A stretch of DNA of 35,654 nucleotides from a virus (taxonomy: Duplodnaviria > Caudoviricetes): positions 1-35,654 of the IMG/VR virus record IMGVR_UViG_3300037465_000124. One strand, given 5' to 3'. The translations under genes and the position numbers were made by a program. Below, in pieces: positions 784 to 35,654 of this stretch (the first letter of the stretch is position 1; every line of letters begins with the position of its first letter). The notes under the pieces are model-generated. The model was not told the DNA's origin. It ran no database searches and saw nothing but the letters and a program-made list of their open reading frames with translations.

Positions 784-794
784 GGCGCCTCTCG

Positions 795-802
795 GCCGAT
801 AG
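795..802 (+). promoter_or_regulatory. Start-associated motif GCCGATAG, copy 1
   Basis: 12 nt upstream of GTG at 815. Confidence 0.65.
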
Positions 803-814
803 GCGCAGGCGGAC

Positions 815-2277: not shown

Positions 2278-2335
2278 AGAGCGCTATCTGGACGAAGCCC
2301 GACACGGGCATCCGGACGCGGGTGTTCTACTTGCC

Positions 2336-2343
2336 GCCGATAG
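2336..2343 (+). promoter_or_regulatory. Start-associated motif GCCGATAG, copy 2
   Basis: GCCGATAGGCGCGGGCGATG; 9 nt to ATG 2353; 20-mer identical to the copy at 4887. Confidence 0.75.
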
Positions 2344-2352
2344 GCGCGGGCG

Positions 2353-4136: not shown

Positions 4137-4157
4137 GCCGAGAGGAGGTAGCAAGAG

Positions 4158-4583: not shown

Positions 4584-4596
4584 AAGCCGCTGAGGC

Positions 4597-4642
4597 GACG
4601 GTGCCGCTCACTGAGATCCCTGATTTGGTGGGCGGCACCGTC
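4597..4642 (+). terminator. Long GC-rich hairpin (terminator or mRNA-stabilising stem) after the capsid genes
   Basis: GACGGTGCCGCTCACTGA...TTGGTGGGCGGCACCGTC, ~20 bp including GU pairs; no U-tract. Confidence 0.6.
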
Positions 4643-4657
4643 CCTGAGAGGAGAGCG

Positions 4658-4894
4658 ATGAAGCTGCGGATGCGACAGACCCACCACGACGCGGTACGCA
4701 ACGAGCCTGTCACGCTGGCTGCGGGGGAGGAATACGAGCTCCCCGCGGACGTTGCGGGACGGATCCTCTCGATGGGGATCGCCGAAGAGGTCAAGGACGC
4801 AGGCCCGGCACCCGAGAACAAGGACGCGGGAGCGGCGGAGGAAAACAAGAGCGAGGCCAAGCCTCGCAGACGCCGTTGGAGCTTCGGCCGATAG
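4658..4894 (+). CDS. Small hypothetical head-region protein
   Basis: SD AGGAG then ATG 4658; its TAG stop lies inside the next GCCGATAG motif. Confidence 0.65.
   Translation: MKLRMRQTHHDAVRNEPVTLAAGEEYELPADVAGRILSMGIAEEVKDAGPAPENKDAGAAEENKSEAKPRRRRWSFGR
4887..4894 (+). promoter_or_regulatory. Start-associated motif GCCGATAG, copy 3
   Basis: 9 nt to ATG 4904. Confidence 0.75.
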
Positions 4895-4903
4895 GCGCGG
4901 GCG

Positions 4904-5167
4904 ATGCCGGTCATCCGCGTCAGGCTCGAAGATCCATCCGGCGAGTGGCGGTCCGCCGCAGTGGCGGCTGACACCCAGGACGAGGCGGTGGCAGTCGTGG
5001 AGGCGCTCGAGGCCAAGCGCACTGCGTTCCTGATCGATCCCTCGGAGGCGAAGGAGCTCGAGCGCAAGCTGCGTGAGGGCTCGCTCTCTGGCCGGGAGAA
5101 GGCCCGGCTGCTCACACATCGTCAGGAGCGGCCGTACAAGGTCGTGAAGGCCGGGAAGGGAGGCTAG
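4904..5167 (+). CDS. Hypothetical protein
   Basis: 87 aa ORF tightly packed in the operon. Confidence 0.65.
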   Translation: MPVIRVRLEDPSGEWRSAAVAADTQDEAVAVVEALEAKRTAFLIDPSEAKELERKLREGSLSGREKARLLTHRQERPYKVVKAGKGG

Positions 5168-5168
5168 C

Positions 5169-5618
5169 GTGGCGATCACCGTCGCTCTCTACGGGCTCAC
5201 GCAGGAGAAGGTGGTCGAACAGGCCGGCGCCGACGTGAACATCCTGTCTGGCACGGCCAAGCTGTCGCTGCACACGGCCACCTACGTGCCGAACCGCGAC
5301 ACGGACGACTTCTTCAACGACGCGACCAACGAGCTGGCCGCGGGCGGTGGCTACACGGCCGGCGGGGAGACGCTCGGCTCCAAGACCGTCACCTACGACT
5401 CGGCCTCCGATCAGGTCCGTTTCGACGCTGCGGATGTGACCTGGACGTTCACGGCCTCGAAGACATGGCGCTACGGCGTGGGCTACATCGACACGGCCGG
5501 GGCTGCCACGACCGACCCGCTCTACTTCCTGCTCACCTGGGACTCGGACCAGACGGTATCGACCCCATATACCCTTCAGTGGGACGCCGCCGGGATTCTT
5601 TTCTGGGACACGACCTGA
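5169..5618 (+). CDS. Putative virion accessory protein
   Basis: Thr/Gly-rich beta-type sequence (TNELAAGGGYTAGGETL); SD GGAGG. Confidence 0.7.
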   Translation: MAITVALYGLTQEKVVEQAGADVNILSGTAKLSLHTATYVPNRDTDDFFNDATNELAAGGGYTAGGETLGSKTVTYDSASDQVRFDAADVTWTFTASKTWRYGVGYIDTAGAATTDPLYFLLTWDSDQTVSTPYTLQWDAAGILFWDTT

Positions 5619-5619
5619 C

Positions 5620-6879
5620 GTGAGCGCGGGCGATCTCATCGCCCGCTCGATCGCCGAGCATCGTCTCAACGCCTGGTACTACAAGGCGTTCCAACGGGAC
5701 AACCCCGTGCTCGCGCCGAAGGTGCTCGCCTACCTCGACGGCGGCGAGCGCCCGACGGACGCGGATCTCGGCTCCAACCACTACGCGCTTGGGCTCGTCC
5801 TCGCGGAGGACGCCAGGCGGGAGTTGGTCGTTCCCGAGCCTGAGCCACCGAGCATGCGGTTGCTCCCGCTCCCGGACCGTTTCCATGTCTGGGGCGGGAA
5901 CGAGCAGCAGAAGATGGCCGAGTGCGGGCTCGTCGTCTGCGCCTTCAGCTCGAATGCCGACCCGCGTGTCGCTCGTCAGCAGAACCCGCGACTCGTCGCG
6001 CTCTCGAACCTCTCGCTCGATCCCTTCAACGCAGACTGGCGGCAGCGCAAGGGGTTCTCGTGGACGTACGGCGGCGGGATCCAGGGTTGGCCGGGTGTCA
6101 ACGACTCGCTTACCCCGAACCCGCAGGGCACGATCCGCGGCTGGCAGTCCTCGGATGCCGGGTGCAAGCAGGCAGACGGCTTGCAGGGCTTCGCGCTGCA
6201 TCGTTCCGAGACCGCTGACTTCCTCGCCCGCGCGGCCTTCTACGCATGGAAGCTCGGCAAGTTCGCCGAGCGCGGCTACGACGGCGTCTGGTCGGACAAC
6301 CTCTTTCCGGGCGACGTGCTCTCGGCGGGCTGGTGCTACGGATCCTGCGGCGCTGGCATCGACCGAGCCGCCTGGGATGCCGGGCTCGTCACGATCACAC
6401 GGCGGCTCCGCTCGCTCGGCGGGCCGATGCTCCTCGGTGGAAACGTCGTCTACCGGGCGAGCGACCCGACGCTGCGCTCCGAGACGAGCGTCACCCTGCG
6501 CGAGAACCTGGACGTGGTGATCGCCCAGGGCATCGATTCGGTGTGGGCTGACGTGCAGCAGATGCACGCCTGGGCCTCGGTGCCGAGCGTGGACGGGCTC
6601 TCCAAGCTCATCGCACTCAACGATCGGGTGCCGCAGGCAGACGCCGCACGCCAGCGTTTCGGGCTCGCGGTCGCGCTCGTCTACGGCGGCCTGTATGCGG
6701 CCTACGACGGGAACCACGCGAACACGTACTGGCCGGCCGAGATCGCCGAAGGCGGGAAGGTCGGCTACCTCGGGCATCCCACCGGCCCCCCGCAGCGTCT
6801 CGGGAACGTGCTCTCGCGCGCCTACGGCGATCGCGTCGTGCGTGCCGACTTCTCCTCCAAGACCGCGTCCTTCGCCTAA
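5620..6879 (+). CDS. Putative glycoside-hydrolase-like TIM-barrel protein (GHL15-like)
   Basis: GYDGVWSDN, RFGLAVAL and C-terminal LG.P.GP..R.G.V..R.Y resemble hypothetical glycosyl hydrolase family 15 (by eye). Confidence 0.55.
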   Translation: MSAGDLIARSIAEHRLNAWYYKAFQRDNPVLAPKVLAYLDGGERPTDADLGSNHYALGLVLAEDARRELVVPEPEPPSMRLLPLPDRFHVWGGNEQQKMAECGLVVCAFSSNADPRVARQQNPRLVALSNLSLDPFNADWRQRKGFSWTYGGGIQGWPGVNDSLTPNPQGTIRGWQSSDAGCKQADGLQGFALHRSETADFLARAAFYAWKLGKFAERGYDGVWSDNLFPGDVLSAGWCYGSCGAGIDRAAWDAGLVTITRRLRSLGGPMLLGGNVVYRASDPTLRSETSVTLRENLDVVIAQGIDSVWADVQQMHAWASVPSVDGLSKLIALNDRVPQADAARQRFGLAVALVYGGLYAAYDGNHANTYWPAEIAEGGKVGYLGHPTGPPQRLGNVLSRAYGDRVVRADFSSKTASFA

Positions 6880-6881
6880 GC

Positions 6882-7673
6882 ATGCCGCTCGTCGATACCG
6901 GCCTCGTCTGCCGCTACTACTTCGACGAGGCGGCCTCCGGCACGACCCCGACTGCCGTCGAGGATCACTCGTCGAACAACTACGACCTGACCGAGATCGA
7001 CTACGGCGCGGGGAACATGTTCTACACCGAGGTCTCGGGCAACCGGGGTCTCGAATCCACGGTCACGACAGGCGTGCAGCGGGCGAGGCGCACGGTGAGC
7101 GACACCTCGGATGCGCTCCGGGACGCGATCGACGGCTTGCAGAAGATCACGTTCGAGCTCGTGCTCGCGATCGACAACGTGACGACCAATCACTCCCGCG
7201 TCTTCGTCGTCAACGACCGCGTGGGCTCCAACGCGCGCATCGGTCTCAACGGACGCCAGGAGGGTGTCTACTTCTGCCGCTGGAACGGGAATGAGTCGAA
7301 CGACTTCAACGAGTCGATGGAGGGCACCCGCAAGGTGTTCCACATCGTCTACGACACGACGCAGGCGGCAGCCGCCGATCGTGCGATCGCCTACGTCAAC
7401 AACGTCGCCAAGTCAATGACGGTCACTTCGACGATCACGCAGAACTCGACCCTCTCGCTCGGCACCGGCCTCGACCTGATCGCCTGCAACCGCGAGAACG
7501 CGGGCACTTGGGACCGCTCGTTCGACGGCACGCTCTTCTACGCGGCGATCTACACGGGGGCGATGTCTGCCGCCGACCGCACGACGAACTACGACGTGCT
7601 CTCGGCAGACGACGACGCGCCGCCGGTTACTGCCCCCACGCTCCGCGTCCTCTCTTCCAATCTGCGCTGGTAG
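6882..7673 (+). CDS. Concanavalin-A/LamG-like virion accessory protein
   Basis: GLVCRYYFDEAASGT..D.S.N, HIVYD..YVN and FDGTL..AAIY LamG-like pattern. Confidence 0.65.
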   Translation: MPLVDTGLVCRYYFDEAASGTTPTAVEDHSSNNYDLTEIDYGAGNMFYTEVSGNRGLESTVTTGVQRARRTVSDTSDALRDAIDGLQKITFELVLAIDNVTTNHSRVFVVNDRVGSNARIGLNGRQEGVYFCRWNGNESNDFNESMEGTRKVFHIVYDTTQAAAADRAIAYVNNVAKSMTVTSTITQNSTLSLGTGLDLIACNRENAGTWDRSFDGTLFYAAIYTGAMSAADRTTNYDVLSADDDAPPVTAPTLRVLSSNLRW

Positions 7674-7675
7674 CG

Positions 7676-7683
7676 GCCGATAG
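7676..7683 (+). promoter_or_regulatory. Start-associated motif GCCGATAG, copy 4
   Basis: 7 nt to GTG 7691. Confidence 0.75.
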
Positions 7684-7690
7684 GCGGGAC

Positions 7691-8125
7691 GTGGCCTGGC
7701 ACTCAGTCAGCGGCCGAACGGACGCGCTCCCCACCTCGCTCCGTGGCCCTTCGCTCTATGCTGCTGCGGCCGCCGGTGCGCGGCTGCGCGAGGTCGAGAT
7801 CGCGAATACGACGGCCACTGCGGTCGCGGTCGGGCTCATCCGCTGGACCGCCACCGGCACGCAGGGCACTGCACTCACCGAAGCTGCGTGGGATCAGAAC
7901 ATGGTCGCACCGCAATGCACGGCGTTCAACACGCACACGGCCGATGCGACAGCTGGCGACGTGATCCGTCGCACCGTGCTTGGTGCTGCGATCGGAGCTG
8001 CGGTCATCTGGACCTTCGGCGGTTCCGGGGTCGTGATCCCCGAAGGCACGGCGAATGGGGTCGGGATCTACCTGCCCACGGGCACCGCGCAGCACCTCGA
8101 CTTCAGTTTCATCTGGGAAGAGTAA
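7691..8125 (+). CDS. Putative virion accessory protein
   Basis: In frame with ORF 7508-8125; beta-rich, ends FIWEE; start placed after the motif. Confidence 0.65.
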   Translation: MAWHSVSGRTDALPTSLRGPSLYAAAAAGARLREVEIANTTATAVAVGLIRWTATGTQGTALTEAAWDQNMVAPQCTAFNTHTADATAGDVIRRTVLGAAIGAAVIWTFGGSGVVIPEGTANGVGIYLPTGTAQHLDFSFIWEE

Positions 8126-10116: not shown

Positions 10117-10124
10117 GACGATAG
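10117..10124 (+). promoter_or_regulatory. Start-associated motif variant GACGATAG, copy 5
   Basis: 10 nt to GTG 10135. Confidence 0.65.
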
Positions 10125-11681: not shown

Positions 11682-12106
11682 TCTCTGCCCGCGTCTCGAT
11701 CGAGCGCGGCTGGGGTGACCGCTTCGCCCGCCGCATCGAGCAGCAGGTTCCGGGGCTCCTGCGCGCGGCAGCAGAGGAGGGCGCAAAGGTGGCAAGCGAC
11801 GCCTCTCGGTCGCGACAGCGCACTGGGAAGATGGCGAAGATGGAGGTGCTGCCGGCGCGCGAGACACCTCGCGGCTTCCAGGGCGGCTTCCGCTCGCGCG
11901 CCTGGTATGCGGGCTTCCAGTCATACGGGACGAAGGGACAGCGGAACCGCCGCGTCTCGGCCGCCACGCTTCGTCGCCGCCAGTCCTCCTCGGAGCAGGC
12001 GCGGCAGAGCTCCAGCCTCGGGATCTCTCCGCTCGGGTTCCTCGAGAAGGGTAGAACCGCGATGCGGCGAGCCTTGATCGCGAGGTTGAACCGGCTCCGC
12101 CGATAG
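11678..12106 (+). CDS. HK97 gp10-like neck protein (putative)
   Basis: Basic protein with RTGKM..., YAGFQSYGT and FL motifs; GTGA overlap. Confidence 0.6.
   Translation: MISARVSIERGWGDRFARRIEQQVPGLLRAAAEEGAKVASDASRSRQRTGKMAKMEVLPARETPRGFQGGFRSRAWYAGFQSYGTKGQRNRRVSAATLRRRQSSSEQARQSSSLGISPLGFLEKGRTAMRRALIARLNRLRR
12099..12106 (+). promoter_or_regulatory. Start-associated motif GCCGATAG, copy 6
   Basis: 8 nt to GTG 12115; its TAG is also the upstream stop codon. Confidence 0.75.
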
Positions 12107-18871: not shown

Positions 18872-18878
18872 CCGATAA
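18871..18878 (+). promoter_or_regulatory. Start-associated motif variant ACCGATAA, copy 7
   Basis: 9 nt to ATG 18888. Confidence 0.65.
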
Positions 18879-19580: not shown

Positions 19581-19588
19581 GCCGATAG
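19581..19588 (+). promoter_or_regulatory. Start-associated motif GCCGATAG, copy 8
   Basis: 7 nt to holin GTG 19596. Confidence 0.75.
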
Positions 19589-19834: not shown

Positions 19835-19842
19835 ACCGATAG
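19835..19842 (+). promoter_or_regulatory. Start-associated motif variant ACCGATAG, copy 9
   Basis: 7 nt to endolysin GTG 19850. Confidence 0.7.
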
Positions 19843-21650: not shown

Positions 21651-21945
21651 CTACCGCAGTGCGTCCTCGGGCAAGAGCCAGCCGACGCCCCACACGTTGA
21701 CGAGTGGGACGCCCTTGCGGCGGAGGCGAGAGACGGCCTGGTCGAGGGCGCGAGACGTGAGCCGGCCGTAGTCGGTCTGGGGGACGAACCCCCAGAGGGC
21801 TAGCCAGAGCTCACGCTTCGTGACGACAGTCCCGGCGCGCTCGATGAAGACCGCGAGGAGCGCGTCGTCGGTTCTGGACACGCGCTCGCCGTTGATCGTC
21901 CAGGCAGCGAAGTCGACGGAGACGACACGCTCCCGGACCTGCTCT
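21651..21945 (-). pseudogene. 5'-truncated OmpR/PhoB-type winged-helix (Trans_reg_C) gene
   Basis: VVTKRELWLALWG..SRALDQAVSRLRRK..NVWGVGW; no start codon before the IS fragment. Confidence 0.65.
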
Positions 21946-22490
21946 GCGGATGTGGGCGGGGTAGGCGAGCCGGATCGTGCGCATGAAGGTGAGCGTGGAG
22001 AGGCCGTTGCGGCGGGGACGCGGCCTGATCCGCAGGTAGTCGGCGTGCACGTCCAAGGCGCCGACCAGGTAGCGGATCCCCTGGCGGCGGGTGTAGGTGG
22101 CGCGGTGCCGCTCGGGCCGGCCGCGCCGCGCCCAGCCGCGTCCGTGACGGGGGCAGAGGCTCTCCGGACCCTTCTCGTCGAAGCTGATGACGACGCCGTT
22201 TTCCGGGCGCTCGCGGTAGAGGGCGAGGATGCGCGCGGCCTTCGCCTCGTAGTCGGAGTCAGGGCTCTGCTTCCAGCTGCGCGTGCGCTGCGGCGAGATC
22301 CCGTTGCGGGCGAGGATGCGGCCGAGGTGGGCGGGCGAGACCTCGATCCCCTGCCCGGCCAGGTAGCGGGAGAGCTTGCCCAGGCTCCAGCGCGTGTACG
22401 GCACCCCGAGCGTGGAGGGACGGGCGCCGGCGAGGGCGACGATCCGCTGCTCGTCGTCACTCGAGATCCGGCGGGGTCGCCCGCGGGCCG
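21946..22490 (-). mobile_element. IS630-family transposase internal fragment
   Basis: GRPRRIS, TRWSLGKL, WKQSPD.DYEAK, VISFDEKGP, ATYTR; truncated before the later DDE residues; no terminal inverted repeats seen. Confidence 0.8.
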
Positions 22491-22546
22491 GAACGAAACG
22501 TACGCTCTTTGCGAACGTTCGTCGCCGCACGAGTTGTTCGTCCTGC

Positions 22547-22574
22547 TTGCATTGTCTTCCGTTCGTGGTACAAA
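22547..22574 (+). promoter_or_regulatory. Sigma70-type early promoter for a leaderless cro-like gene
   Basis: TTGCAT-16nt-TACAAA with extended TGn; 7 nt to TTG 22582. Confidence 0.55.
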
Positions 22575-22581
22575 GAGACGC

Positions 22582-22767
22582 TTGCAAAAGGCGCGGAAGA
22601 CGAAGGGACTCACCCGAGCCGAGCTCGCGAAGGCCGCTCAGTCGACCGAGGCGGCCGTTCGCATGTGGGAAACCGGGCGCCGACAGCCGAAGATGCAGTA
22701 CCTCATTCGCATCGCGCAGGCGACCGACCGGGACGTGTCCTGGTTCTTCGAGGAGGTCGCAGCATGA
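22582..22767 (+). CDS. Cro-like XRE helix-turn-helix protein
   Basis: LQKARKTKGLTRAELAKAAQSTEAAVRMWETGRRQP..RIAQAT..WFF. Confidence 0.85.
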   Translation: MQKARKTKGLTRAELAKAAQSTEAAVRMWETGRRQPKMQYLIRIAQATDRDVSWFFEEVAA

Positions 22768-23286: not shown

Positions 23287-23417
23287 GCGCCGCCGAGATG
23301 TACGAGCGCATTCGCGCGGCCTGCTGCCCCGAGCACGGCTTCGAGGCAGACTGGATGCTCGACGCTCACGCCAAGGCCATCGTCTTGACGATCCTAAGGC
23401 TCCGAGGTGTTGTGTGA
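23283..23417 (+). CDS. Small hypothetical protein (44 aa)
   Basis: GTGA overlaps at both ends; MSAAEMYERIRAACCPEHG... Confidence 0.5.
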   Translation: MSAAEMYERIRAACCPEHGFEADWMLDAHAKAIVLTILRLRGVV

Positions 23418-23653
23418 GCGAGTTCCGCCCCATTTCCATCCGCCGTGCCGACATCGAAGCACTCGACGAGTCGGTGGAGGCGCTCTTCCGCGCGGGCGAG
23501 AGGACGCTCGCGCTCAAGCTCGGCGCGCTTGCCTTGCGAGCGCGCGGGAGCACTGGCTTTCACCACCCGAGCTTCGTCTGCGACGTGGACGAGAGCGCGG
23601 GAGTGGCCGAGGTTGTCGAGATCAGCGGTTACTCGAGGAAGGCGGGGGCGTGA
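23414..23653 (+). CDS. Hypothetical protein
   Basis: GTGA overlaps at both ends. Confidence 0.55.
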   Translation: MSEFRPISIRRADIEALDESVEALFRAGERTLALKLGALALRARGSTGFHHPSFVCDVDESAGVAEVVEISGYSRKAGA

Positions 23654-24408
23654 CGACGACAACAGTCTTCGATTACACCGCTCAAGGCACGAGTGAGCTT
23701 GCCAAGGCGCTTGTCAAGGCACAGTCGGAGTTTCCGACGATTGAGCGCTCGAAGACGGTGAGCGTGACGACGAAGACGGGCGGGAAGTATACGTTCGACT
23801 ACGCGCCGCTCGACGCGATTGTGCGCGCCGTTTCGGGCCCCCTCACGGCCAACGGGCTTGCGTTCTCACAACTGTTGACGCACGTCGGCGGTCAGCTGGC
23901 ACTGCGAACCGTTCTCTTGCACTCCTCCGGCGAGAAGCTCGAGGGCACGTGTCCACTGCCCCTCAACGGAGAGAGCACTCCGCAGGAGATTGGCTCTCTC
24001 GTCACCTACATGCGCCGCTATGCGCTCGTGGCGCTGCTCGGGATCGCGACTGAGGAGGACGACGACGGGAACACGGCGAGCGGGAGCGTCGCGAATCCGG
24101 CGGCAGGGCGCGGGGCCGGCGAACCTGACTCCGGCTCTGCCGCCGACGCGCTCGAGGAAGCGCACGCGGCCTACCTGCGGCGCATCGAGAAGGGGCGCGC
24201 ACCGGGTGCGGTTCCCTCGGAGCAAGTCATCCACTTCGGGAGGAACAAGGGATTGACGCTCGGCGAGCTCACCCCTCGCCAGCTCGCCTGGTATGCGACC
24301 GAGTGGAAGCTGCAGGACGAGCCGACGGAGTACGACCACCGGTTGAAAGCCGCTGCCGTGGCACTCAACGCCGGCCACGATCATCCCGACTTCGACCCCC
24401 CCTTCTAG
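23650..24408 (+). CDS. erf: ERF-family ssDNA-annealing protein with a C-terminal FG..KG..L.EL domain
   Basis: LAKALVKAQSE, YTFDYAPLDAI, PQEIGSLVTYMRRYAL..LGIA.EEDDDG. Confidence 0.9.
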   Translation: MTTTTVFDYTAQGTSELAKALVKAQSEFPTIERSKTVSVTTKTGGKYTFDYAPLDAIVRAVSGPLTANGLAFSQLLTHVGGQLALRTVLLHSSGEKLEGTCPLPLNGESTPQEIGSLVTYMRRYALVALLGIATEEDDDGNTASGSVANPAAGRGAGEPDSGSAADALEEAHAAYLRRIEKGRAPGAVPSEQVIHFGRNKGLTLGELTPRQLAWYATEWKLQDEPTEYDHRLKAAAVALNAGHDHPDFDPPF

Positions 24409-24789: not shown

Positions 24790-24959
24790 CCATCACGCCC
24801 GCCATCCCCATCGCCCCACCCGAGCCCGGCGCGCTGCAAGAAGTGACCGGAATCGACCCCTACTCATATCCAAGAGGGGTGCTTGTCGAGGCGCTTCTCG
24901 TGCTCGGCGGGCAGCACCGGGAGGAGCTCAGGGCGCATTTCCAGGGGCAGGAGGCGTAG
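24786..24959 (+). CDS. Small hypothetical protein
   Basis: ATGA overlap; packed in the operon. Confidence 0.45.
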   Translation: MTITPAIPIAPPEPGALQEVTGIDPYSYPRGVLVEALLVLGGQHREELRAHFQGQEA

Positions 24960-25732
24960 TGGTGGCGTGGCTCGACGACCGTGCCTGGTGCCACCCCAAG
25001 CTCGTGAACCTCTCAGATCGTGCTCACCGTGTCTACATCAACAGCCTGGCCTACGCCTCGGGCATGGCGACGAAAGGACGCCTGACGCAAGCACAGCAGC
25101 GGCTGCTCGGAGCGACGCCAGCCATCCGCCGCGAGCTCCTGGACGCGCGGTGCTGGGACGATCTCGGTGACGATATCGCCATCCACGACTGGACCGACCA
25201 CAACGCGAGGCGCGATGCGCGGCGGGAGGCCGACCGGGAACGAAAACGAGCAGCGCGTCTCAAGGAACGTCCGCAGGACAGTCCCGCGGACAGTCCTAAG
25301 GAAAGTCCGCGGGAGCGTCGGCAGGACCGGCGCGCGTTGAAGGAAGTGAAGGAAGTGACAGAGAGATCTACTGACGTAGATCTCTCGGACGAGCGACCTC
25401 GCGACGAACTCTGGGACGCACTCGTGGCCGAACTCGGTGAACCGGCGACGAAGAACGAGCGTGGCCGTCGCAACGCTGCCGTGAAGCAGCTACGGGAGAT
25501 AGCCACGACTAGCGAGGAGGTACGCCGTCGGTGTCGGGCGTATCGGCGTATGTGGCCGGACATCACGCTCACCGATACGGCACTCGTCTCGAACTGGACG
25601 ACGCTCAAGCAGGCCGACAAGCGACGTTCCGTCGAAGAAATCGTCAACTTACCGGACATCAGCGATGACGAGCGTCGGAAGAACTTGGAGCGCGCTGGCG
25701 CGCTTGCCGAGTCGATTGGGAAGCCGACGTGA
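24959..25732 (+). CDS. Phage replication initiator protein
   Basis: WLDD..WCHPKL..L.Y and IHDWTDHN..RERKR actinophage Rep-like N-terminus; internal iterons. Confidence 0.75.
   Translation: MVAWLDDRAWCHPKLVNLSDRAHRVYINSLAYASGMATKGRLTQAQQRLLGATPAIRRELLDARCWDDLGDDIAIHDWTDHNARRDARREADRERKRAARLKERPQDSPADSPKESPRERRQDRRALKEVKEVTERSTDVDLSDERPRDELWDALVAELGEPATKNERGRRNAAVKQLREIATTSEEVRRRCRAYRRMWPDITLTDTALVSNWTTLKQADKRRSVEEIVNLPDISDDERRKNLERAGALAESIGKPT
25257..25386. repeat. Putative replication origin: six tandem 12-bp iterons plus an 11-bp perfect inverted repeat
   Basis: GTCTCAAGGAAC, GTCCGCAGGACA, GTCCCGCGGACA, GTCCTAAGGAAA, GTCCGCGGGAGC, GTCGGCAGGACC (25257-25328); GAGAGATCTAC-TGAC-GTAGATCTCTC (25361-25386). 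Confidence 0.7.
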
Positions 25733-25789
25733 GCCGCCGCATGAGCCACGACGATCTCGTCGCTCTCCGTCGTCGCCATCGCGATCGAC

Positions 25790-26634: not shown

Positions 26635-26837
26635 GCGCGACTGAGCACGCGACCATCGGACGCGGCGGAACCGCGTCCGCTACACCTGGCGCGCGGACGT
26701 GCTGCGCGAAATCTCGGCAGCGGTGCGCTTCATCAGCTCGGAGCCGGATGCACTACGCCGGTGCCGGCCCGAAGTCGGGCGGTCGCTCACTCGACGGGCG
26801 GACGTGGGACGAGATGCCGGAGATGCCCGCCGCATGA
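26631..26837 (+). pseudogene. Collapsed Gp37/Gp68 (DUF5131) remnant
   Basis: RADVLREISAAVRFISSEP and PKSGGRSLDGRTWDEMP in different frames within ~200 bp. Confidence 0.75.
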
Positions 26838-26980
26838 GCAACCTCGTCATCCTCCTCGCCTCGTTCGCCTTCCTCGCCGGGCTCTTCGCCGCGCTCGCGG
26901 GGATCGCGGACCTGCTCGGGCGCCTATGGTCGGAGTGGGACCCGGCGCGGGACGGGCTCGTTCCGTGGAGGCGGCGATGA
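26834..26980 (+). CDS. Small membrane protein
   Basis: MSNLVILLASFAFLAGLFAALAGIADLL...; ATGA overlaps. Confidence 0.55.
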   Translation: MSNLVILLASFAFLAGLFAALAGIADLLGRLWSEWDPARDGLVPWRRR

Positions 26981-27750
26981 GCGGGGTCTACAAGTTCCTG
27001 AACGGGCGCGAGGCCCCGAACGTCCCCGGCTACCGCTACCGGCTCGGCCACTGGCGCGAAGTCCAGGGGCCGCTCGTCGTCTGCCGCAATGGGATCCACC
27101 TCCTGCGCTCCGAGCACCTCTCGCGCTGGAGCGCTCGCGACCTCTACCGGGCTGAGTACGACGGGGAGCTGCTGGAGGCTGGCGACAAGATCGTTGTCCG
27201 TCGGGCCCGTATCGTCGAGCACTTGAAGGGTTGGACCGAGCGCACGGCCCGACTTGCGGCGGTGGACTTCGCAGAGGCGGTGCTGCCGATCTTCGGGGCG
27301 CACTATCCCGACGACGACCGCCCGCGTAAGGCGATCGAGGCTGCGCGCGGCTACGTGAACGGGCTAATCGGGAGAGACGCTTTGCGCGCCGCCCGCGCCG
27401 CCTCCGCCGCCTCCGCCGACGCCGCCCGCGCCGCCGCCCGCGCCGCCGCCGACGCCGCCGCCGACGCCGCCGCCTACGCCGCCGCCTCCGCCGCCGCCGA
27501 CGCCGCCTACGCCGCCGCCTCCGCCGCCGCCTACGCCGCCGCCGACGCCGCCGACGCCGCCGCCTACTACGCCTCCGCCGCCTCCGCCGACGCCGCCCGC
27601 GCCGCCGCCTACGCCGCCGCCGACGCCGCCGCCTCCGCCTCCGCCGCCGACGACGACGACGCCTACTACGCCTACTACCCCGCCCGCGCCGCCGCCTACG
27701 CCGCCCAAGGCGAGATCATCCTCGACTACGCATACGGGAGGCGGGGATGA
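26977..27750 (+). CDS. Phage protein with Imm5-like domain and poly-Ala tail
   Basis: YKF..CRNGIH N-terminal domain; FAEAVLPIF..YPDDDRPRKAIEAAR; Ala-rich repeat. Confidence 0.7.
   Translation: MSGVYKFLNGREAPNVPGYRYRLGHWREVQGPLVVCRNGIHLLRSEHLSRWSARDLYRAEYDGELLEAGDKIVVRRARIVEHLKGWTERTARLAAVDFAEAVLPIFGAHYPDDDRPRKAIEAARGYVNGLIGRDALRAARAASAASADAARAAARAAADAAADAAAYAAASAAADAAYAAASAAAYAAADAADAAAYYASAASADAARAAAYAAADAAASASAADDDDAYYAYYPARAAAYAAQGEIILDYAYGRRG
27388..27706 (+). repeat. Imperfect (GCC)n trinucleotide array encoding the Ala-rich tract
   Basis: ~105 codons, nearly all GCC, interspersed with GAC/TAC/TCC/CGC. Confidence 0.95.
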
Positions 27751-27875: not shown

Positions 27876-28369
27876 GCCTGACAACGATTTCGCACAAGAA
27901 GGGCCGCGTCTACCACCGCCACTTCGATCACGACGAGGCACGACGGCTGCGCGCTGAGGGGCTGTGGACGTACTCGCGGCTTGCCGAGCACTTCGGAGTT
28001 TCGGAGGCCGCCGTCATGCGGGTGTGTAACCCCGAGTTCCGTGCCCGCATGGACGCACGCTTGAAGGAGTTCGTGTGGCGCAACAAGCGTGAGCCGTGCA
28101 AGGGCGAGTGTGGGCGGCTTGTCTGGATGATGACTAAGGGCCGAAGCGGCTATTGCCAGAGTTGCCTCGGCGAGCGTCGCGTGGCTGCGGATGTACGCGA
28201 GGGAGAGCTCCGCTGGACGCAGTGCCGCCAGTGGAAGCCCGATAGCGAGTTTGGTCACAACAAGAACAAGGCGCGTCGGGGACTCGGCCCGAGGACGCGA
28301 TCCCGGATGAGGATGTGTATGGCCCTTGACAGGCGCCGGCCCAGGGTGTATAGTCGTACACATGGATAG
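27872..28369 (+). CDS. HTH plus Cys-rich protein, probably 3'-truncated by the moron
   Basis: WTYSRLAEHFGVSEAAV HTH; CxxxC, CxxC and C..WKP.SEF motifs; its end runs through a promoter. Confidence 0.55.
   Translation: MSLTTISHKKGRVYHRHFDHDEARRLRAEGLWTYSRLAEHFGVSEAAVMRVCNPEFRARMDARLKEFVWRNKREPCKGECGRLVWMMTKGRSGYCQSCLGERRVAADVREGELRWTQCRQWKPDSEFGHNKNKARRGLGPRTRSRMRMCMALDRRRPRVYSRTHG
28326..28354 (+). promoter_or_regulatory. Near-consensus sigma70 promoter
   Basis: TTGACA-17nt-TATAGT, overlapped by inverted repeat GTGTA-N6-TACAC (28346-28361). Confidence 0.85.
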
Positions 28370-28903: not shown

Positions 28904-29100
28904 TCACCACAGCCCTCTACGATCAGATGACCGGAGACAGATACGAGTTGACCGGCCCCGGCACGTCGTGGTGGGAGGCAGGATACGTGCCGGGGTACCG
29001 CGTCTGTATGAGCGTCGTCCCGAACAGGGGCGACCCCCCGGCGTACGACGTCGGATCTCTCCGCCATCGTTTTGGCATCTATCCGCCCCCGACCGGATGA
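28900..29100 (+). CDS. Moron hypothetical protein 2
   Basis: ATGA overlaps at both ends. Confidence 0.55.
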   Translation: MITTALYDQMTGDRYELTGPGTSWWEAGYVPGYRVCMSVVPNRGDPPAYDVGSLRHRFGIYPPPTG

Positions 29101-29375
29101 CCTCCCTCTACGAGAACATCGTCCACGCCGCACTTCGCGAGAGCCCGCCTCTGGGCTCTCCGCGTGAAGGCGTCCCGGTCCATCCCGAGGACGCTCGGCA
29201 GGCGCTCGCCTGGTACGCGGAGATGCACGCCGCGGGCTCGCGCATCAGGGCCGAGGCCATGCTCGAGCTCGCGGCCTGGGCGCGGGCCGGCAAGCGCGCC
29301 GGTCTGAGCGTGTCGGAGATCGCACGCCAAGCCGGGGTGACGCGAGTTACCGTGTACAACTTGCTCCGCGACTGA
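29097..29375 (+). CDS. Moron HTH DNA-binding protein
   Basis: GLSVSEIARQAGVTRVTVYNLL. Confidence 0.75.
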   Translation: MTSLYENIVHAALRESPPLGSPREGVPVHPEDARQALAWYAEMHAAGSRIRAEAMLELAAWARAGKRAGLSVSEIARQAGVTRVTVYNLLRD

Positions 29376-30477: not shown

Positions 30478-31519
30478 GTTGCGCTTTGCAGCGAGTTCGC
30501 GCGTTGTCACTCCCCTCGCGCGACGCGAGAGGAGGTTCCTGCCCGCCCGAGCTCTGCGAGACGCGCTGCGCGCGTTGTCACACGGAGGGGCGGTCGGAAA
30601 AATCTCTAGGTGTTTCCGGTTGCGGCAGCCCGCGCGAAGAGGCCGGGAAGCCAGCGAGGGAGCAGGAGTCATCCGGGCCGCGGTGACGACACTCGCCGTC
30701 ACGCTCTCCCTCGCTTGCCCGGCCGCTCAGGCCGAAGGATCGGGCGCGGCCGTAGGCGGTGACCCTTCCTCCGTCGTAACGGAGACCGAGCCGCGGATGC
30801 TGCCGCGCGTGACGGGTGTTGGGGCACTGCTCGCAGCCACGAGCGCTTCGGCGGTCCGCGCAGCGGGTTTCGCGGTGACGGATTCTGTGCGGTCGCGCCC
30901 GAGCACTTGTCCCGCTGCTCGCAAGGCGCTGCGCTTCTTCACGGCGCGCGAGGCAGAGTGGCGGGCGAGGATGCCTGCGTCCAGCAGGCTAGGGGGCAGG
31001 GAAAGAGTCGACCACCGGTCCATGTCGCCCTGCCCCCGCCTCCGTCGCGCAGCGCTCCGCGCGCAGGCCCGCGCCAGGGCCGCCAGGAGCCGCTGGGAGC
31101 GCTTCTGGGGGGCCGAGCGAGGTCACGTCATCCGTCGGCTCGAGCGGGGGATGCGAGGAACGCCGATGGCGGGCACGGGGATCCTGCTTGAGCGCCACGG
31201 TCGTCGCTACGGCGTCTCCCCCTACTTCATGGTCGCGGTCGCGGCGACCGAGAGCTCGATCGGGCGCGTGCCCTGCCGCAACAACCGGCGCAACGTGTGG
31301 GGGCTCGCGAGCTGCGTCAACACCTGGCCGGTCCCCTACTTCGCGACCTGGGACGCGGCGATCTCGTTCTACGCGCGCTTCCTCGCCCGCCGCTGGCCGG
31401 GGCACTCGACGCCGTACTCGTTCCGGGGCTACGCGGCCTGCTCGGACTGCTGGTCGCGGAAGATCAGCTATTGGATGCGGGCGCTTTTCGGGGTCAGGCC
31501 GGTGACGAGGTATCCGTGA
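30455..31519 (+). CDS. Secreted lysozyme-like/glucosaminidase-like peptidoglycan hydrolase (start uncertain: 30455, 30671 or 30683)
   Basis: Signal-like AAVTTLAVTLSLACPAAQA; YGVSPYFMVAVAATESSIG..NVWGL..FATWDAAISFYARFL. Confidence 0.7.
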   Translation: MRAMDSCELRFAASSRVVTPLARRERRFLPARALRDALRALSHGGAVGKISRCFRLRQPARRGREASEGAGVIRAAVTTLAVTLSLACPAAQAEGSGAAVGGDPSSVVTETEPRMLPRVTGVGALLAATSASAVRAAGFAVTDSVRSRPSTCPAARKALRFFTAREAEWRARMPASSRLGGRERVDHRSMSPCPRLRRAALRAQARARAARSRWERFWGAERGHVIRRLERGMRGTPMAGTGILLERHGRRYGVSPYFMVAVAATESSIGRVPCRNNRRNVWGLASCVNTWPVPYFATWDAAISFYARFLARRWPGHSTPYSFRGYAACSDCWSRKISYWMRALFGVRPVTRYP

Positions 31520-31764
31520 TGGAGCCCTACCTCGCCGACCCCGACGTCACGATCTACCACGGAGACGCGCTCGCCTGCCTGCGCGAGCTGCCGGACGAGT
31601 CGGTTCTCGCGCAGCTGCGCCGGGCAGACGACGCTCGCAAGCTCGGACGGCGCAGCAGCGGTGCGCTCTCGCCGTCTCGCGCATGGTGGAGGTGGCGGCA
31701 TGAGGGAGCACGAGGTTTTTCGGCTGGGCGTCCGAGAGGCGACGCGCGCAGCAGCGCGAGTTGA
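31519..31764 (+). pseudogene. N-terminal stub of an N4/N6 DNA methyltransferase fused to unrelated sequence
   Basis: MEPYLADPDVTIYHGDALACLRELPDESV, then similarity stops just before the expected (D/S)PPY motif. Confidence 0.7.
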
Positions 31765-31927
31765 GCTGCGGTTCAACGGTGTTAATCTCGTGTTCGTGTC
31801 AGACCTGCTCGCAAGCGAGTTACGCGTCTGGTCAGACCCCGTGCAAATCATGCTCGAGCCCAGTCGCGAGGGAGAAGGATTGCTCGACATGCATGTGCGA
31901 CCGACTGCCCGACGAGACGATTCCTGA
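31700..31927 (+). CDS. Hypothetical protein
   Basis: SD GGAGGT then ATG 31700. Confidence 0.55.
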   Translation: MREHEVFRLGVREATRAAARVELRFNGVNLVFVSDLLASELRVWSDPVQIMLEPSREGEGLLDMHVRPTARRDDS

Positions 31928-33320: not shown

Positions 33321-33626
33321 ATGACTGAGATGGCAACGCAGGAGCAGGCGTTCGACGCCAGTGCGTTCGACCTTCCCATCCCTCGTGACCGCTACGGGCG
33401 AAAGGCAGACAAGCTCGTCGTCTCGCTTGGCTCGATCGAGCTCGACCGTACCTCAGAGGATGACCTCAACGTGTTCAACGCGCTCGAGCACGGAAACTAC
33501 GTTGAGCTTCGCGTGGTGGCGTTCGTGGCGCAGGCAAGCGACGTGGCGAAGGTGGACGGCGAGGGCGAGGAGGAGACGGAGATGAAGCGTTCCCTGCGCG
33601 TCACCCGAGTGGAGCTGACACCCTGA
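33321..33626 (+). CDS. Hypothetical acidic protein
   Basis: SD AAGGAGG then ATG 33321. Confidence 0.7.
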   Translation: MTEMATQEQAFDASAFDLPIPRDRYGRKADKLVVSLGSIELDRTSEDDLNVFNALEHGNYVELRVVAFVAQASDVAKVDGEGEEETEMKRSLRVTRVELTP

Positions 33627-33736
33627 CCACGCTCGTTGCCCCGTCCACCGCTGAGGCGAGCTCGCGCCTCGCCCAGCGCAAGCACGCCCGCATCGGCGAG
33701 CTCTACGACCGCTGCCAGTGGTACGAGCTGATCCTC

Positions 33737-34216
33737 ATGCGTCACGGCTTTACACCTGAGGGCCTGCAGAAGCTCTCTTGCAAGATCGCTTACGACGGCT
33801 GCCGCAGACGAGGAGCGATGCTGCAGGACCGCATGGACGATCTCGTGTCCCGACTCACCATCGCTGGGCTCGAAGCACTGCGACGCTACGACCCTGAACG
33901 ACACCAGGCAAGCTACGGCTCGAACGGCGGCGACCCTGTGTTGAGCTACATCTCGGACATCATGGACGCCCGTATCACGGACTACTTCCGCTGCCGCTCC
34001 GAGGGCTTCGGTGACCGTCGCTATGGCAACGACAACCGCATCGTCCTCGACGACGACCCCGACCCCGCAGACCACGACACGGACTTCGAGCTCCTCGTCG
34101 ATGACCGGCGACGGGCCCGCTGGCAGGAAGCAGCCGATGCGACAGGCTGGCCGTTGAGTGAGTGGATTGCGATCGCGCTCGACCGGTACGCCGAGGCGGT
34201 GCTGAAGGCGGCATGA
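33737..34216 (+). CDS. Sigma70 region-2-like protein (FliA/WhiG-like) with a C-terminal RHH-like segment; may start at CTG 33623
   Basis: DDLVS....AGLEALRRYDPER...SY....DARITDYFR resembles sigma region 2.2-2.4; C-terminus FELLVDDRRRARWQEAADATGWPLSEWIAIAL. Confidence 0.65.
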   Translation: MRHGFTPEGLQKLSCKIAYDGCRRRGAMLQDRMDDLVSRLTIAGLEALRRYDPERHQASYGSNGGDPVLSYISDIMDARITDYFRCRSEGFGDRRYGNDNRIVLDDDPDPADHDTDFELLVDDRRRARWQEAADATGWPLSEWIAIALDRYAEAVLKAA

Positions 34217-34292: not shown

Positions 34293-34553
34293 GTGACCCC
34301 GAAGTCGGATAGAACCGCTCGTGGATACGGTCAGAACCATCGCCGGCTCAGAGCTCTATGGGAAAAGCGAATCGCGACCGGCAGCGTCCTCTGCGCCCGC
34401 TGTCAGCGGCCGATTCTGCCCGGTGAGCTCTGGGATCTCGGCCATGACGACCTCGACCGCTCCCGCTACACGGGCCCCGAGCATCGCCGCTGCAACCGGG
34501 CGACCTCGACGCACCGTGCACGCCGCGCCCTGCGAACCTCGCGCCAGTGGTGA
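34293..34553 (+). CDS. Terminase-associated HNH protein
   Basis: RGYG..HRRLR..CARC..PI.PG..WDLGHDD..GPEH..CNR. Confidence 0.88.
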   Translation: MTPKSDRTARGYGQNHRRLRALWEKRIATGSVLCARCQRPILPGELWDLGHDDLDRSRYTGPEHRRCNRATSTHRARRALRTSRQW

Positions 34554-34843: not shown

Positions 34844-35654
34844 CTATGTCTCCTCGACCGGCGGCGAGGCGCTCGAGCTATGCGAGATGGCTGGTCTCCA
34901 CCTCGACCCGTGGGAGGCGTTCGTGCTCGAGCATGCTCTCGGCGAGCGCGCTGATGGGCGCTGGGCATCATTCGAGGTCGGGATCAACGTCTCCCGCCAG
35001 AACGGAAAGGGGGCGATCCTCGAGGCGCGCGAACTAGCTGGGCTCTTCCTCCTTCCCGAGCGCCTGATTATCCATTCGGCACATCAGTTCGACACCTCGA
35101 TCGAGCACTTTCGGCGCTTGCTCTTCCTCGTCGAGAACACACCCGACCTCGACCGGCGGGTGAAGCGCGTCTCGCGCTCGCACGGCGAGGAGGGGATCGA
35201 GCTCCTGGACGGCTCGCGCATCCGCTTCCGCACGCGCACGAAGGGCGGGGGGCGCGGGTTCACGGGCGACCTGCTCGTGCTCGATGAGGCGATGGAGCTC
35301 GCGGAGGCGTTCCACGGGGCGCTCTTGCCGACGCTCTCGGCGACCTCGGTGACCGGGAACCCGCAGGTGTGGTACACGGGCTCGGCGGTCGACCAACTCA
35401 TCCACGAGAACGGCGTCGTATTTGCGCGCATCCGTGAGCGCGGGCATCGTGGCGATCTCTCGCTCGCCTACTTCGAGTGGTCGGTGGAATGCCCGACCCC
35501 GGACGAGCTCGACGATGAGGTGATGGTCGACCCGGCTTCGTGGGCGCAGGCGAATCCCGGCCTCGGGATCCGGATCTCCGCCGAGCACGTCGCGCGGGAG
35601 CTTCGCTCGATGGACAAGCGCACGTTCGCGGTGGAGCGGCTCGGCGTCGGCGAT
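34773..35654 (+). CDS. terL: Terminase large subunit, N-terminal ATPase part (runs through the join; absent from the ORF track)
   Basis: Translated by hand from ATG 34773 (SD GGAGG): LDPWE, Walker A SRQNGKG, HSAH, RGFTGDLLVLDEAM Walker B. Confidence 0.93.
   Translation, partial: MTLALDVPSDLLGEQQPRVVSVPDYVSSTGGEALELCEMAGLHLDPWEAFVLEHALGERADGRWASFEVGINVSRQNGKGAILEARELAGLFLLPERLIIHSAHQFDTSIEHFRRLLFLVENTPDLDRRVKRVSRSHGEEGIELLDGSRIRFRTRTKGGGRGFTGDLLVLDEAMELAEAFHGALLPTLSATSVTGNPQVWYTGSAVDQLIHENGVVFARIRERGHRGDLSLAYFEWSVECPTPDELDDEVMVDPASWAQANPGLGIRISAEHVARELRSMDKRTFAVERLGVGD
35460..35654. repeat. Terminal direct repeat, copy 2
   Basis: Matches 1-195 with one mismatch. Confidence 0.95.

What the first reader, a model, noticed from the sequence alone, without database searches (positions are those of the whole stretch)
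33623..34216. Phage-encoded half sigma factor: FliA/WhiG-like region 2 without region 4, fused to a ribbon-helix-helix-like tail
Seen: DRMDDLVSRLTIAGLEALRRYDPER-(insert)-LSYISDIMDARITDYFR, then an acidic linker (DDDPDPADHD) and FELLVDDRRRARWQEAADATGWPLSEWIAIALDRYAE. Established: sigma-28 region 2 has the pattern DDL...G..GL..A..R(Y/F)D....F.TYA..RI.G...D.LR; region 2 binds core RNAP and the -10 box; T4 gp55 is a precedent for a late sigma that lacks region 4 and reads -10-only promoters; RHH proteins show strand-helix-G.SLSEW-helix. The gene is last before HNH-terS-terL, where late regulators often sit. Inference: this protein is the cognate factor for the nine CCGATAG boxes, with the RHH replacing the region-4 HTH (dimerisation, DNA tethering or autoregulation). 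I do not recognise this architecture as described.
Basis: partly seen in the sequence, partly recalled or inferred. Interest (0 to 1): 0.85.

Follow-up and report, generated by a model that had tools for sequence, protein, structure and literature searches.

The report
Phage half-sigma with borrowed dimer tail
A family of uncultured high-GC phages encodes a protein with a predicted sigma-factor region-2 fold whose usual -35-reading end is replaced by a helix pair likely captured from a neighbouring regulator gene, and it likely switches on virion genes from the single word CCGATAG that sits 7-9 bases before their start codons.

Summary
The gene is real (197 aa; about 170 relatives). Its model matches sigma region 2 and it has no region 4. 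The tail is the C-terminal helix pair of LmbU-family regulators, likely without a DNA-reading ribbon. Relatives that keep a region-4-like end carry a whole LmbU-like gene just downstream (4 of 4), so the tail likely arose by deletion-fusion. A homodimer is predicted, narrowly (0.43, best control 0.00).

CCGATAG occurs 8 times exactly, not 9. It behaves as a -10-only promoter: 72 sense against 8 antisense copies in 12 phage records, 7-9 nt before start codons, no ribosome-binding site, no -35, and one copy before a tRNA. All 4 motif-rich phages first found by the motif alone carry a family gene; 3 later motif-rich fragments do not but stop short of its usual place. Phages with region-4-like or split tails use the same word, so region 2 and not the tail likely reads it. 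The word equals the host-type WhiG -10 box, but the protein's layout is ECF-like.

Verdict: a new variant of the T4 gp55 kind of late sigma. No transcript or binding has been measured.

The parts
33623..34216 (+). Half-sigma gene, 197 aa, CTG start overlapping the upstream stop (databases call it from ATG 33737)
33731..34006 (+). Sigma region-2 domain, about residues 37-128, with an insert in the 2.2-2.3 loop; D73, D120, R123 conserved
   Evidence: VIA Z 7-8.3 to SigB, WhiG, SigK, SigA, SigI6; Pfam Sigma70_r2 in 21 of 78 members; TIGR02937 in 56 of 89
34007..34102 (+). GDRR motif and acidic linker, residues 129-160, low pLDDT, collinear with the ECF region 2-4 linker
34103..34210 (+). Helix-helix tail, residues 161-196, homologous to the LmbU-family C-terminal RHH; ribbon likely lost
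   Evidence: NF038070 positions 128-170 in 23 of 89 members; TacA1 in 30 of 78; hhalign 165-196 P 80.7; VIA Z 5.2 to TacA1 and Rv0298
33321..33626 (+). Conserved upstream partner gene, 101 aa, beta-rich, no named fold; candidate co-factor
   Evidence: present in 31 of 33 loci with at least 350 nt upstream, in none of 5 region-4-type or split phages
796..802 (+). CCGATAG between terL and portal; GTG of a 53-aa frame 12 nt on
2337..2343 (+). CCGATAG 9 nt before the prohead protease ATG (2353)
4888..4894 (+). CCGATAG 9 nt before ATG 4904 (87 aa)
7677..7683 (+). CCGATAG 7 nt before GTG 7691 (144 aa)
10118..10124 (+). ACGATAG variant 10 nt before GTG 10135 (head-tail adaptor-like)
12100..12106 (+). 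CCGATAG 8 nt before GTG 12115, ahead of the tail tube gene
18872..18878 (+). CCGATAA variant 9 nt before ATG 18888 (virion structural protein-like)
19582..19588 (+). CCGATAG 7 nt before GTG 19596
19836..19842 (+). CCGATAG 7 nt before GTG 19850
28239..28245 (+). CCGATAG with no start codon behind it; possibly chance
34293..34553 (+). HNH endonuclease, first gene of the packaging block after the half-sigma
   Evidence: phrog_1808 E 2.9e-14

Best explanation
This protein is likely a phage late sigma factor reduced to region 2: it would bind the host RNA polymerase clamp, read and melt the -10-only word (G)CCGATAG, and start near-leaderless messages for virion genes, while its LmbU-derived helix pair is predicted to dimerise it rather than read DNA. 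Steps: (1, model and profiles) residues 37-128 fold as sigma region 2. (2, shown) The word lies 7-9 nt before start codons on the sense strand, with no -35 and no ribosome-binding site, and in one phage before a tRNA. (3, correlation shown, causation inferred) The word travels with this gene family whatever its tail. (4, inferred from solved SigI, ShbA and sigma28 complexes) D120, R123 and R117 read the CG pair, R133 the upstream bases, and the acidic linker threads the active cleft. (5, inferred) An ancestral region 2-4 sigma sat just upstream of an LmbU-like gene; deletion of region 4 and most of LmbU fused the sigma linker helix to LmbU's last two helices, apparently more than once. (6, predicted, weak) The product is a homodimer. 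The host is probably Thermoleophilia (indirect).
For: Fold: the top 18 VIA rows hold 17 sigma or sigma-like chains, best Z 8.3, rmsd 1.9, 70 aligned; gp55 Z 6.9, rmsd 2.1, 73 aligned. Foldseek ranks 1-3 are a SigE region 2. TIGR02937 hits 56 of 89 members. hhalign to host ECF P 95-97.

Motif: 72 sense against 8 antisense in 12 records or parts of records; at most 0.15 bit at every position from -40 to -2; 0 of 47 sites carry the host-type YAAR -35. Anti-SD pairing is at random level: -3.3 against -3.2 kcal/mol, 3 of 47 at -6 or better, against 12 of 24 other window starts. In G025 the word stands 7 nt before tRNA-Met. Pa sigma28 has GCCGATAA at -15 to -8, that is 7 nt to +1 (PMC12784957).

Co-occurrence: of 34 records found by the motif alone, 4 of 4 with four or more copies carry a homologue, against 1 of 30 others; pooled with the second set p = 9e-5.

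Tail origin: a whole LmbU-like gene lies 56 to about 530 nt downstream in 4 of 4 region-4-type phages, while five fused-type records show only the tail match. Homodimer 0.43, best of 3 controls 0.00; the mark was reached by 20 of 30 solved homodimers and 1 of 23 monomers; runs agree in at least 52% of contacts, pLDDT at least 68. A region-4-less ShbA transcribes normally in vitro (PMC12019637 section 16).
Against: No single sequence or Foldseek hit is significant: Pfam E 0.011, below cut-off; no Foldseek E under 0.001; VIA Z of 7-8 is within the range the tool calls common for helical bundles. The Q and E of ShbA's core-binding D60/Q63/E64 are S76/R77 here, though host WhiG also has DLVSY. V106 replaces a Phe kept in 74 of 78 relatives. 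135 of 151 Thermoleophilia genomes hold a WhiG over cut-off and show (T/C)AA(A/G)-N16-(G)CCGATA sites, so a host sigma for this -10 exists. With a 2.4% background rate, 0 of 47 shows no enrichment of the -35 but is close to the chance count of about 1. Three further motif-rich fragments lack the gene: one is identical to a gene-bearing phage, one ends about 430 nt before terL, one has no terL. Five of the 12 records were selected by the motif. HNH-terS-terL has no exact copy upstream. The dimer score is 0.01 above the mark, and its best contacts are in the N-terminal helices, not the tail. VIA aligns residues 148-197 onto whole RHH chains, so a ribbon is not excluded. The tree is a quick one on 102 columns.
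Confidence: 0.72

Rival explanations
1. The host WhiG/FliA reads the word, helped by a phage activator that replaces the -35. The phage protein is a sigma-2 mimic that steers or blocks host sigmas or anti-sigmas instead of reading the promoter.
For: The word equals the sigma28 -10 core. WhiG is present in 135 of 151 Thermoleophilia genomes, with bipartite sites ending in CCGATA above the reversed control in 5 of 5. Core-binding residues are partly divergent.
Against: No -35 and no activator box upstream. The DNA-reading positions D120, R123, R133 are the best conserved in the family (87, 89, 87 of 89), which a decoy would not need. The gene accompanies the word across three tail types. The phage-type extended word is not enriched in WhiG-bearing genomes, 6 against 9 control hits.
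Confidence: 0.12
2. One reading: the protein is the cognate sigma and the RHH tail binds DNA, tethering the polymerase or repressing its own gene in place of region 4.
For: Tail matches RHH families by Pfam, NCBIfam, VIA and Atlas; dimer predicted; 106 of 169 classified family members keep this tail.
Against: No conserved site upstream of the word. The same word is used by non-RHH relatives. Ribbon positions are acidic with helical spacing (F155 72 of 78, L158 73 of 78, 157 variable) and align with the sigma linker. LmbU's own RHH is not needed for DNA binding and a fragment holding it does not bind (PMC6510168 section 13).
Confidence: 0.1
3. The word is a translation signal like the mycobacteriophage cluster K start-associated sequence GGGATAGGAGCCC, and the link to the gene reflects shared ancestry only.
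For: Shares GATAGG and the position before start codons (PMC3203893 passages). All carriers may be kin.
Against: A copy stands 7 nt before a tRNA. No anti-SD pairing above random. The spacing fits a sigma28-type start site. 19 of 72 sense copies have no long frame starting within 3-13 nt.
Confidence: 0.04

Closest known systems
T4 gp55 late sigma (PMC7892883, abstract and passages read; PDB 7D7D)
   Same: Phage-encoded region-2 homologue, no region 4, many late promoters with a -10-like element and no -35 conservation; VIA Z 6.9.
   Different: gp55 follows region 2 with a helix-loop-helix and a clamp-binding tip and is activated by gp33 and gp45; no such genes were identified here. Different word, small siphovirus-type genome, leaderless starts, RHH-family tail, family linked to ECF-type region 2-4 proteins.
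Streptomyces ECF sigma ShbA (PMC12019637, abstract and sections 16, 17, 19 read)
   Same: Actinobacterial, -10 CGATGA read by an Asp and Arg of helix 4, region 4 disordered and dispensable in vitro.
   Different: ShbA is a host protein that keeps region 4 and has -35 motifs; no RHH.
Sigma28 / FliA / WhiG (PMC12784957, passages read; TIGR02479)
   Same: -10 word GCCGATAA and 7-nt spacing to +1; DLVS(Y) and RYDP in region 2.2-2.3; tied top fold match (Z 8.1).
   Different: Needs regions 3 and 4 and a -35; has RI(R/K)G, absent here; only 2 of 89 members touch TIGR02479; hhalign P 2.9 (close set) and 70.9 (wide set).
SigI of Bacilli and Clostridia (PMC10575876, passages read; PDB 8I24)
   Same: Region 2 joined to a C-terminal domain that is not region 4; the CG pair is read by R98, D101, R104, the spacing of R117, D120, R123 here; 16 of 89 members hit a SigI model weakly.
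   Different: SigI's C-domain is a large HTH that does read a -35 A-tract; -10 is CGWA.
LmbU family regulators (NF038070; PMC6510168, passages and section 13 read)
   Same: C-terminal RHH-like helices homologous to the tail; whole LmbU-like genes sit behind region-4-type relatives.
   Different: LmbU binds DNA by a central HTH that the fusion lacks; its reported dimer depends on Cys12, not on the RHH.
RinA/ArpU-type late activators before terS (PMC3152322, search listing only)
   Same: Same genomic slot, just upstream of the packaging genes.
   Different: They bind one site upstream of terS and work with the host sigma; here many promoters and a region-2 fold.

Membership tests
Sigma-70 family | Region-2 three-helix fold | tested here: met
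   AF2 pLDDT 87.8; VIA, Foldseek and Atlas top rows are sigma region 2, each individually weak
Sigma-70 family | Curated profile cut-off (PF04542, TIGR02937) | tested here: not met
   16 bits against 24; 15.8 against 42.9. Four of 81 scanned relatives pass PF04542
Sigma-70 family | Binds core RNA polymerase and directs initiation | not testable with these tools
   Not measured; the one complex job went to the homodimer. D73 conserved, Q/E positions not
FliA/WhiG (group 3) | Regions 3 and 4 present | tested here: not met
   197 aa; no region 3 or 4 match in the protein
FliA/WhiG (group 3) | RI(R/K)G in region 2.4 | tested here: not met
   Position 113 is never R in 78 close homologues, R in 15 of 89 of the wide set; G at 116 not among the common residues
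FliA/WhiG (group 3) | -10 word GCCGATA(A) | tested here: met
   CCGATAG, G before it in 34 of 53; assignment of the word to this protein is inferred
FliA/WhiG (group 3) | -35 TAAA/CAAG element | tested here: not met
   0 of 47 sites; no upstream information
ECF (group 4) | Region 2, short linker, region 4 | tested here: not met
   Not in this protein; met in a sister set of 39 proteins, three with Sigma70_ECF or r4_2 hits
ECF (group 4) | Region 2.3-2.4 pattern with DxxR | tested here: met
   hhalign P 95.3 over 63-172 and 97.5 over 70-125; D120 and R123 in 78 of 78
Ribbon-helix-helix | Helix A, Gly turn, helix B | tested here: met
   H161-174, G175, H178-196
Ribbon-helix-helix | N-terminal strand with alternating hydrophobic and DNA-reading residues | tested here: inconclusive
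   No strand in the monomer model and no confident dimer contacts at 152-160; helical conservation pattern; but VIA aligns 148-197 to RHH chains and the strand forms between chains. Leaning absent
Ribbon-helix-helix | Homodimer | tested here: inconclusive
   Model passes narrowly, 0.43 against control 0.00; not a measurement
T4 gp55-type late sigma | Region 2 only, -10-only late promoters | tested here: met
   (promoter function inferred)
T4 gp55-type late sigma | gp33 co-activator and gp45 clamp | tested here: inconclusive
   No such PHROG hit among 36 window frames scanned; not all frames scanned; the upstream partner is unassigned

The most novel reading that the evidence does not exclude
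A homodimeric sigma factor with a plug-in tail. These phages have repeatedly thrown away region 4 and captured the helix pair of the adjacent LmbU-like gene, so the sigma carries its own dimer switch. The predicted dimer also buries the N-terminal helices and residues 87-91 beside the -10 pocket, so it would be a self-silenced store that opens on the polymerase, with the co-travelling 101-aa protein as its trigger. Because it reads the WhiG -10 without a -35, it would also fire part of the host's WhiG regulon.
Probability: 0.25. Interest if true: 0.82.

Novelty: new variant of a known kind. Interest (0 to 1): 0.6.

Why it matters
It is a natural domain-swap series on one sigma region 2. The same promoter word is paired with a region-4-like tail, a split-off region 4, or an RHH-derived helix pair. 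This makes an old question directly testable: what is the least a sigma-70 protein needs, and what does the slot of region 4 do once no -35 is read? A dimeric sigma would be unusual. A 200-aa factor with a 7-base, -10-only, leaderless promoter would also be a compact expression switch for actinobacteria. The basic logic (phage region-2-only sigma, many late promoters) is known from T4, and phage sigmas with leaderless late promoters recur in this scan, which caps the score.

Tried and rejected
PDB sequence search with the family profile: only chance hits, best E 0.11. PHROGs: none for this protein; phrog_1740 sigma in 10 of 89 relatives. No tblastn match in 50,697 GenBank phages and none in the genome collection by peptide pattern, so no cultured carrier was found. 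Longer fused forms: one hit, in a short contig. No RNA holder listed for window 600-8000, which says nothing on expression. The full motif in the genome collection gave scattered single hits across phyla; the short pattern was not above its reversed control in 6 of 7 genomes and 12 against 9 in G260. Phylum-wide search for the family: 0 of 401 at E 1e-10. A separate region-4 gene in the window: only a weak generic HTH at 29298-29369, not hit by the sister-clade profile. Partner protein: no fold match, best Z 3.2; Atlas lead to PF21628 in 22-34% of cluster members. The pyrimidine-purine step at +8/+9 in 46 of 47 sites is partly forced by the start codon and is not counted as evidence. I first read G017 as 'no tail'; its region-4-like part lies in the next frame. 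The G029 gap printed used a wrong frame; about 370 nt follows. The ARAGORN tRNA-Arg on the minus strand at 25766 was not followed. The careful tree did not finish. Literature searches found no description of this architecture (open-access text only).

Full report
THE OBSERVATION. The start is a CTG overlapping the stop of the gene before. Databases call the protein from ATG 33737, but many homologues extend to the same upstream point and begin with M or V. The gene is followed after 76 nt by an HNH nuclease, a small unassigned gene and terL. The window is a circular phage genome, with a 195-nt terminal overlap at 99.5% identity. There are 81 homologues by phmmer and 173 cluster representatives by profile. 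None was found in cultured phages. The motif count is 8 exact CCGATAG, all on the coding strand, against a chance mean of 2.97 (1 of 100 shuffles reached 8). Seven lie in the virion module, six of them 7-9 nt before a start codon.

THE N-TERMINAL DOMAIN. The AlphaFold model (78 sequences, mean pLDDT 87.8) has five helices to residue 123, a low-confidence linker and two long C-terminal helices. Against 48,161 solved chains, 17 of the top 18 rows are sigma or sigma-like region-2 chains: SigB Z 8.3 (rmsd 1.9, 70 aligned), WhiG 8.1, SigK 7.9, SigA 7.8, SigI6 7.5, gp55 6.9. These scores are tied and individually middling, and Foldseek gave nothing under E 0.001. The agreement across methods carries the weight: Sigma70_r2 in 21 of 78 close members, TIGR02937 in 56 of 89 of the wide set, and Atlas neighbours with Sigma70_r2. 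The subtype is mixed. Region 2.2 reads like Thermoleophilia WhiG (DLVS then an aromatic in the wide set), but region 2.3-2.4 reads like ECF or SigI. hhalign gives P 95.3 and 97.5 to host ECF proteins against 2.9 and 70.9 to host WhiG, with the caveat that the WhiG profile held 4 sequences and the ECF profile 6. D120, R123 and R133 are kept in 87, 89 and 87 of 89 members and R117 in 76. In SigI6 the -10 CG pair is read by R97, R98, D101 and R104 (PMC10575876, passages), the spacing of positions 116, 117, 120 and 123. In ShbA an Asp in the same helix reads C-12 (PMC12019637, section 17). That R133 answers to the sigma28 arginine reading the extended -10 (R97 in PMC12784957) is my inference.

THE TAIL. 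Residues 146-188 match positions 128-170 of the LmbU family model, the part that PMC6510168 calls an RHH motif and shows to be unnecessary for DNA binding (passages and section 13). The wider family has more than one ending. Of 169 proteins with a clear region 2, my profiles class 106 as RHH-tailed, 39 as ending in a region-4-like HTH and 24 as neither. The region-4 profile was built from 25 hand-picked members, and the RHH count is swollen by close homologues. Three of the second kind hit Sigma70_ECF or Sigma70_r4_2. The two tails are complementary with a neighbour. G011, G016, G025 and G029 have a region-4-like sigma and a whole LmbU-like gene 56 to about 530 nt downstream. G000, G001, G002, G004 and G005 have only the LmbU tail, inside the sigma gene. 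G003, G006 and G017 gave no match. Profile alignment places the seam: the region-4-type sisters align with residues 34-161, host ECF with 63-172, the phage LmbU-like proteins with 165-196 only. The LmbU-like proteins have a typical ribbon (alternating hydrophobics with an Arg) where this family has an acidic stretch with F155 and L158 conserved in helical spacing. I infer a deletion from the sigma's pre-region-4 helix into LmbU's helix A, which removed region 4, the LmbU HTH and the ribbon. A quick tree on region 2 alone mixes the two tails (15 changes, at least 2 forced by strong branches), so this likely happened more than once. Against a lost ribbon, VIA aligns residues 148-197 onto whole RHH chains at Z 5.1-5.2, and a monomer model can miss an inter-chain strand. 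Two copies of residues 20-197 scored 0.43, best of 3 controls 0.00. The mark was reached by 20 of 30 solved homodimers and 1 of 23 monomers; runs agree in at least 52% of contacts, pLDDT at least 68. Confident contacts lie at 21-40, 87-91 and 163-194, none at 152-160. Likeness to solved RHH dimers may help this pass.

THE WORD IS LIKELY A PROMOTER. In 12 phage records or parts of records that carry a family gene, CCGATAG occurs 72 times on the sense strand and 8 times on the other. G002 was left out as a near copy of G001; G001, G005 and G017 were read in part; five records had been selected by the motif. Of the 72, 53 have a start codon within 13 nt, 46 of them at 7, 8 or 9 nt. From -40 to -2 no position exceeds 0.15 bit. 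None of 47 sites has the YAAR element that precedes CCGATA in host-type genomes, though only about 1 is expected by chance. The 47 genes pair with the anti-Shine-Dalgarno word no better than random sequence, unlike 24 other window starts picked by eye. In G025 one copy stands 7 nt before a tRNA-Met, which a translation signal would not. P. aeruginosa sigma28 puts GCCGATAA at -15 to -8, so +1 would fall on the start codon or 1-2 nt before it. No RNA data were available.

WHO READS IT. Of 34 viral records found by the motif alone, the 4 with four or more same-strand copies all carry a family gene, against 1 of the other 30. A second set of 50 records (46 chosen by length or repeated hits from about 200 motif loci, 4 from 34 capsid relatives) held 3 more motif-rich records, none with the gene. 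One is 100% identical over 12 kb to gene-bearing G005, one ends about 430 nt upstream of terL and one lacks terL. Pooled, p = 9e-5; these phages are kin, so the figure overstates independence. The key point is that the four motif-found carriers do not have the RHH tail: three end in a region-4-like HTH and one has it split into the next frame. The word follows region 2, not the tail. The rival is the host. Strong family matches occur in 2 of 401 Thermoleophilia genomes and 0 of 401 across the phylum, which points weakly to that class. 135 of 151 of its genomes have a WhiG with the same -10 core. The absence of the -35 on the phages, the lack of the phage-type extended word in those hosts and the conservation of the DNA-reading residues favour the phage protein.

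MECHANISM. Shown: the fold match, the tail homology, the motif's position and strand, the co-occurrence. Inferred: the protein is made at the end of the early or middle block, binds host core through helix 2.2, melts (G)CCGATAG without a -35 and starts leaderless or nearly leaderless messages from about nine late promoters. Region 4 became idle and was replaced or split off. The captured helix pair likely dimerises the factor and does not choose promoters. A truncated ShbA without region 4 transcribes normally (PMC12019637 section 16; the data are in a supplementary figure I did not see), and T4 gp55 reads -10-like elements with no -35 (PMC7892883, abstract and passages). A 101-aa gene sits directly upstream in 31 of 33 loci with enough sequence and in none of five non-RHH phages. 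It may be a co-factor in gp33's role, but no fold could be assigned.

NOVELTY. It works like gp55 but is not shown to be a gp55 family member, and it fails the defining layouts of FliA/WhiG and of ECF. Six searches of open-access text found no report of a sigma region 2 joined to an RHH or LmbU tail; subscription papers were not searched. Earlier notes of this scan describe other phages with sigma28-like factors and leaderless late promoters, one with CCGATAA (unchecked, used as a lead to test the WhiG rival). Verdict: a new variant of a known kind, interest 0.6. The boldest reading, a self-dimerising sigma with a plug-in switch, has probability about 0.25.

Noticed in passing
G017:C1 about 38590-38900; G395:C9 about 31465-31900; G360:C3 about 197500-197800: A subclade where the region-4-like HTH lies in the +1 frame overlapping the tail of the region-2 gene (3 of 4 looked at). 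In G017 it has its own AAGGAGG plus GTG and runs into what looks like a ParB-type domain (judged by eye). Either a split two-gene sigma or a programmed frameshift.
   Followed up: partly
window 33321-33626: 101-aa beta-rich protein that travels with the RHH-tailed form (31 of 33 loci) and was not found in five region-4-type or split phages; no fold assigned.
   Followed up: partly
window 1-195 and 35460-35654: 195-nt terminal overlap at 99.5% identity inside terL: the record is a circular, likely complete genome although listed as linear and 39% complete.
   Followed up: yes
G016:C1 34065-34960 (L095): Family member with Cys-rich zinc-ribbon-like inserts inside region 2 and in the linker.
   Followed up: no
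G260:C8 271055-271073; L042 488-494: The word stands directly before the family gene itself, which suggests autoregulation in some members; not so in the window.
   Followed up: no
window 28326-28354: Near-consensus sigma-70 promoter TTGACA-17-TATAGT ahead of gene 28391, a likely early promoter of the block that ends with the half-sigma.
   Followed up: no
window 21820-22767, 23407-24408, 24959-25732, 26761-27750, 28968-29375: C-terminal HTH_3 regulator, ERF annealing protein, replication initiator, Imm5-like protein and a small HTH gene; no integrase seen among 36 frames scanned.
   Followed up: no
G016 (L254 17343-17735); G005 (L005 10457-10530); G025 (L260 7495-7567): Unusual tRNA-Met and tRNA-Gln genes in these phages, at the start of the late block.
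   Followed up: partly
G058, G046, G064, G082, G149: Thermoleophilia genomes show clustered (T/C)AA(A/G)-N16-(G)CCGATA sites, a likely WhiG regulon, in a class where 135 of 151 genomes carry WhiG.
   Followed up: no
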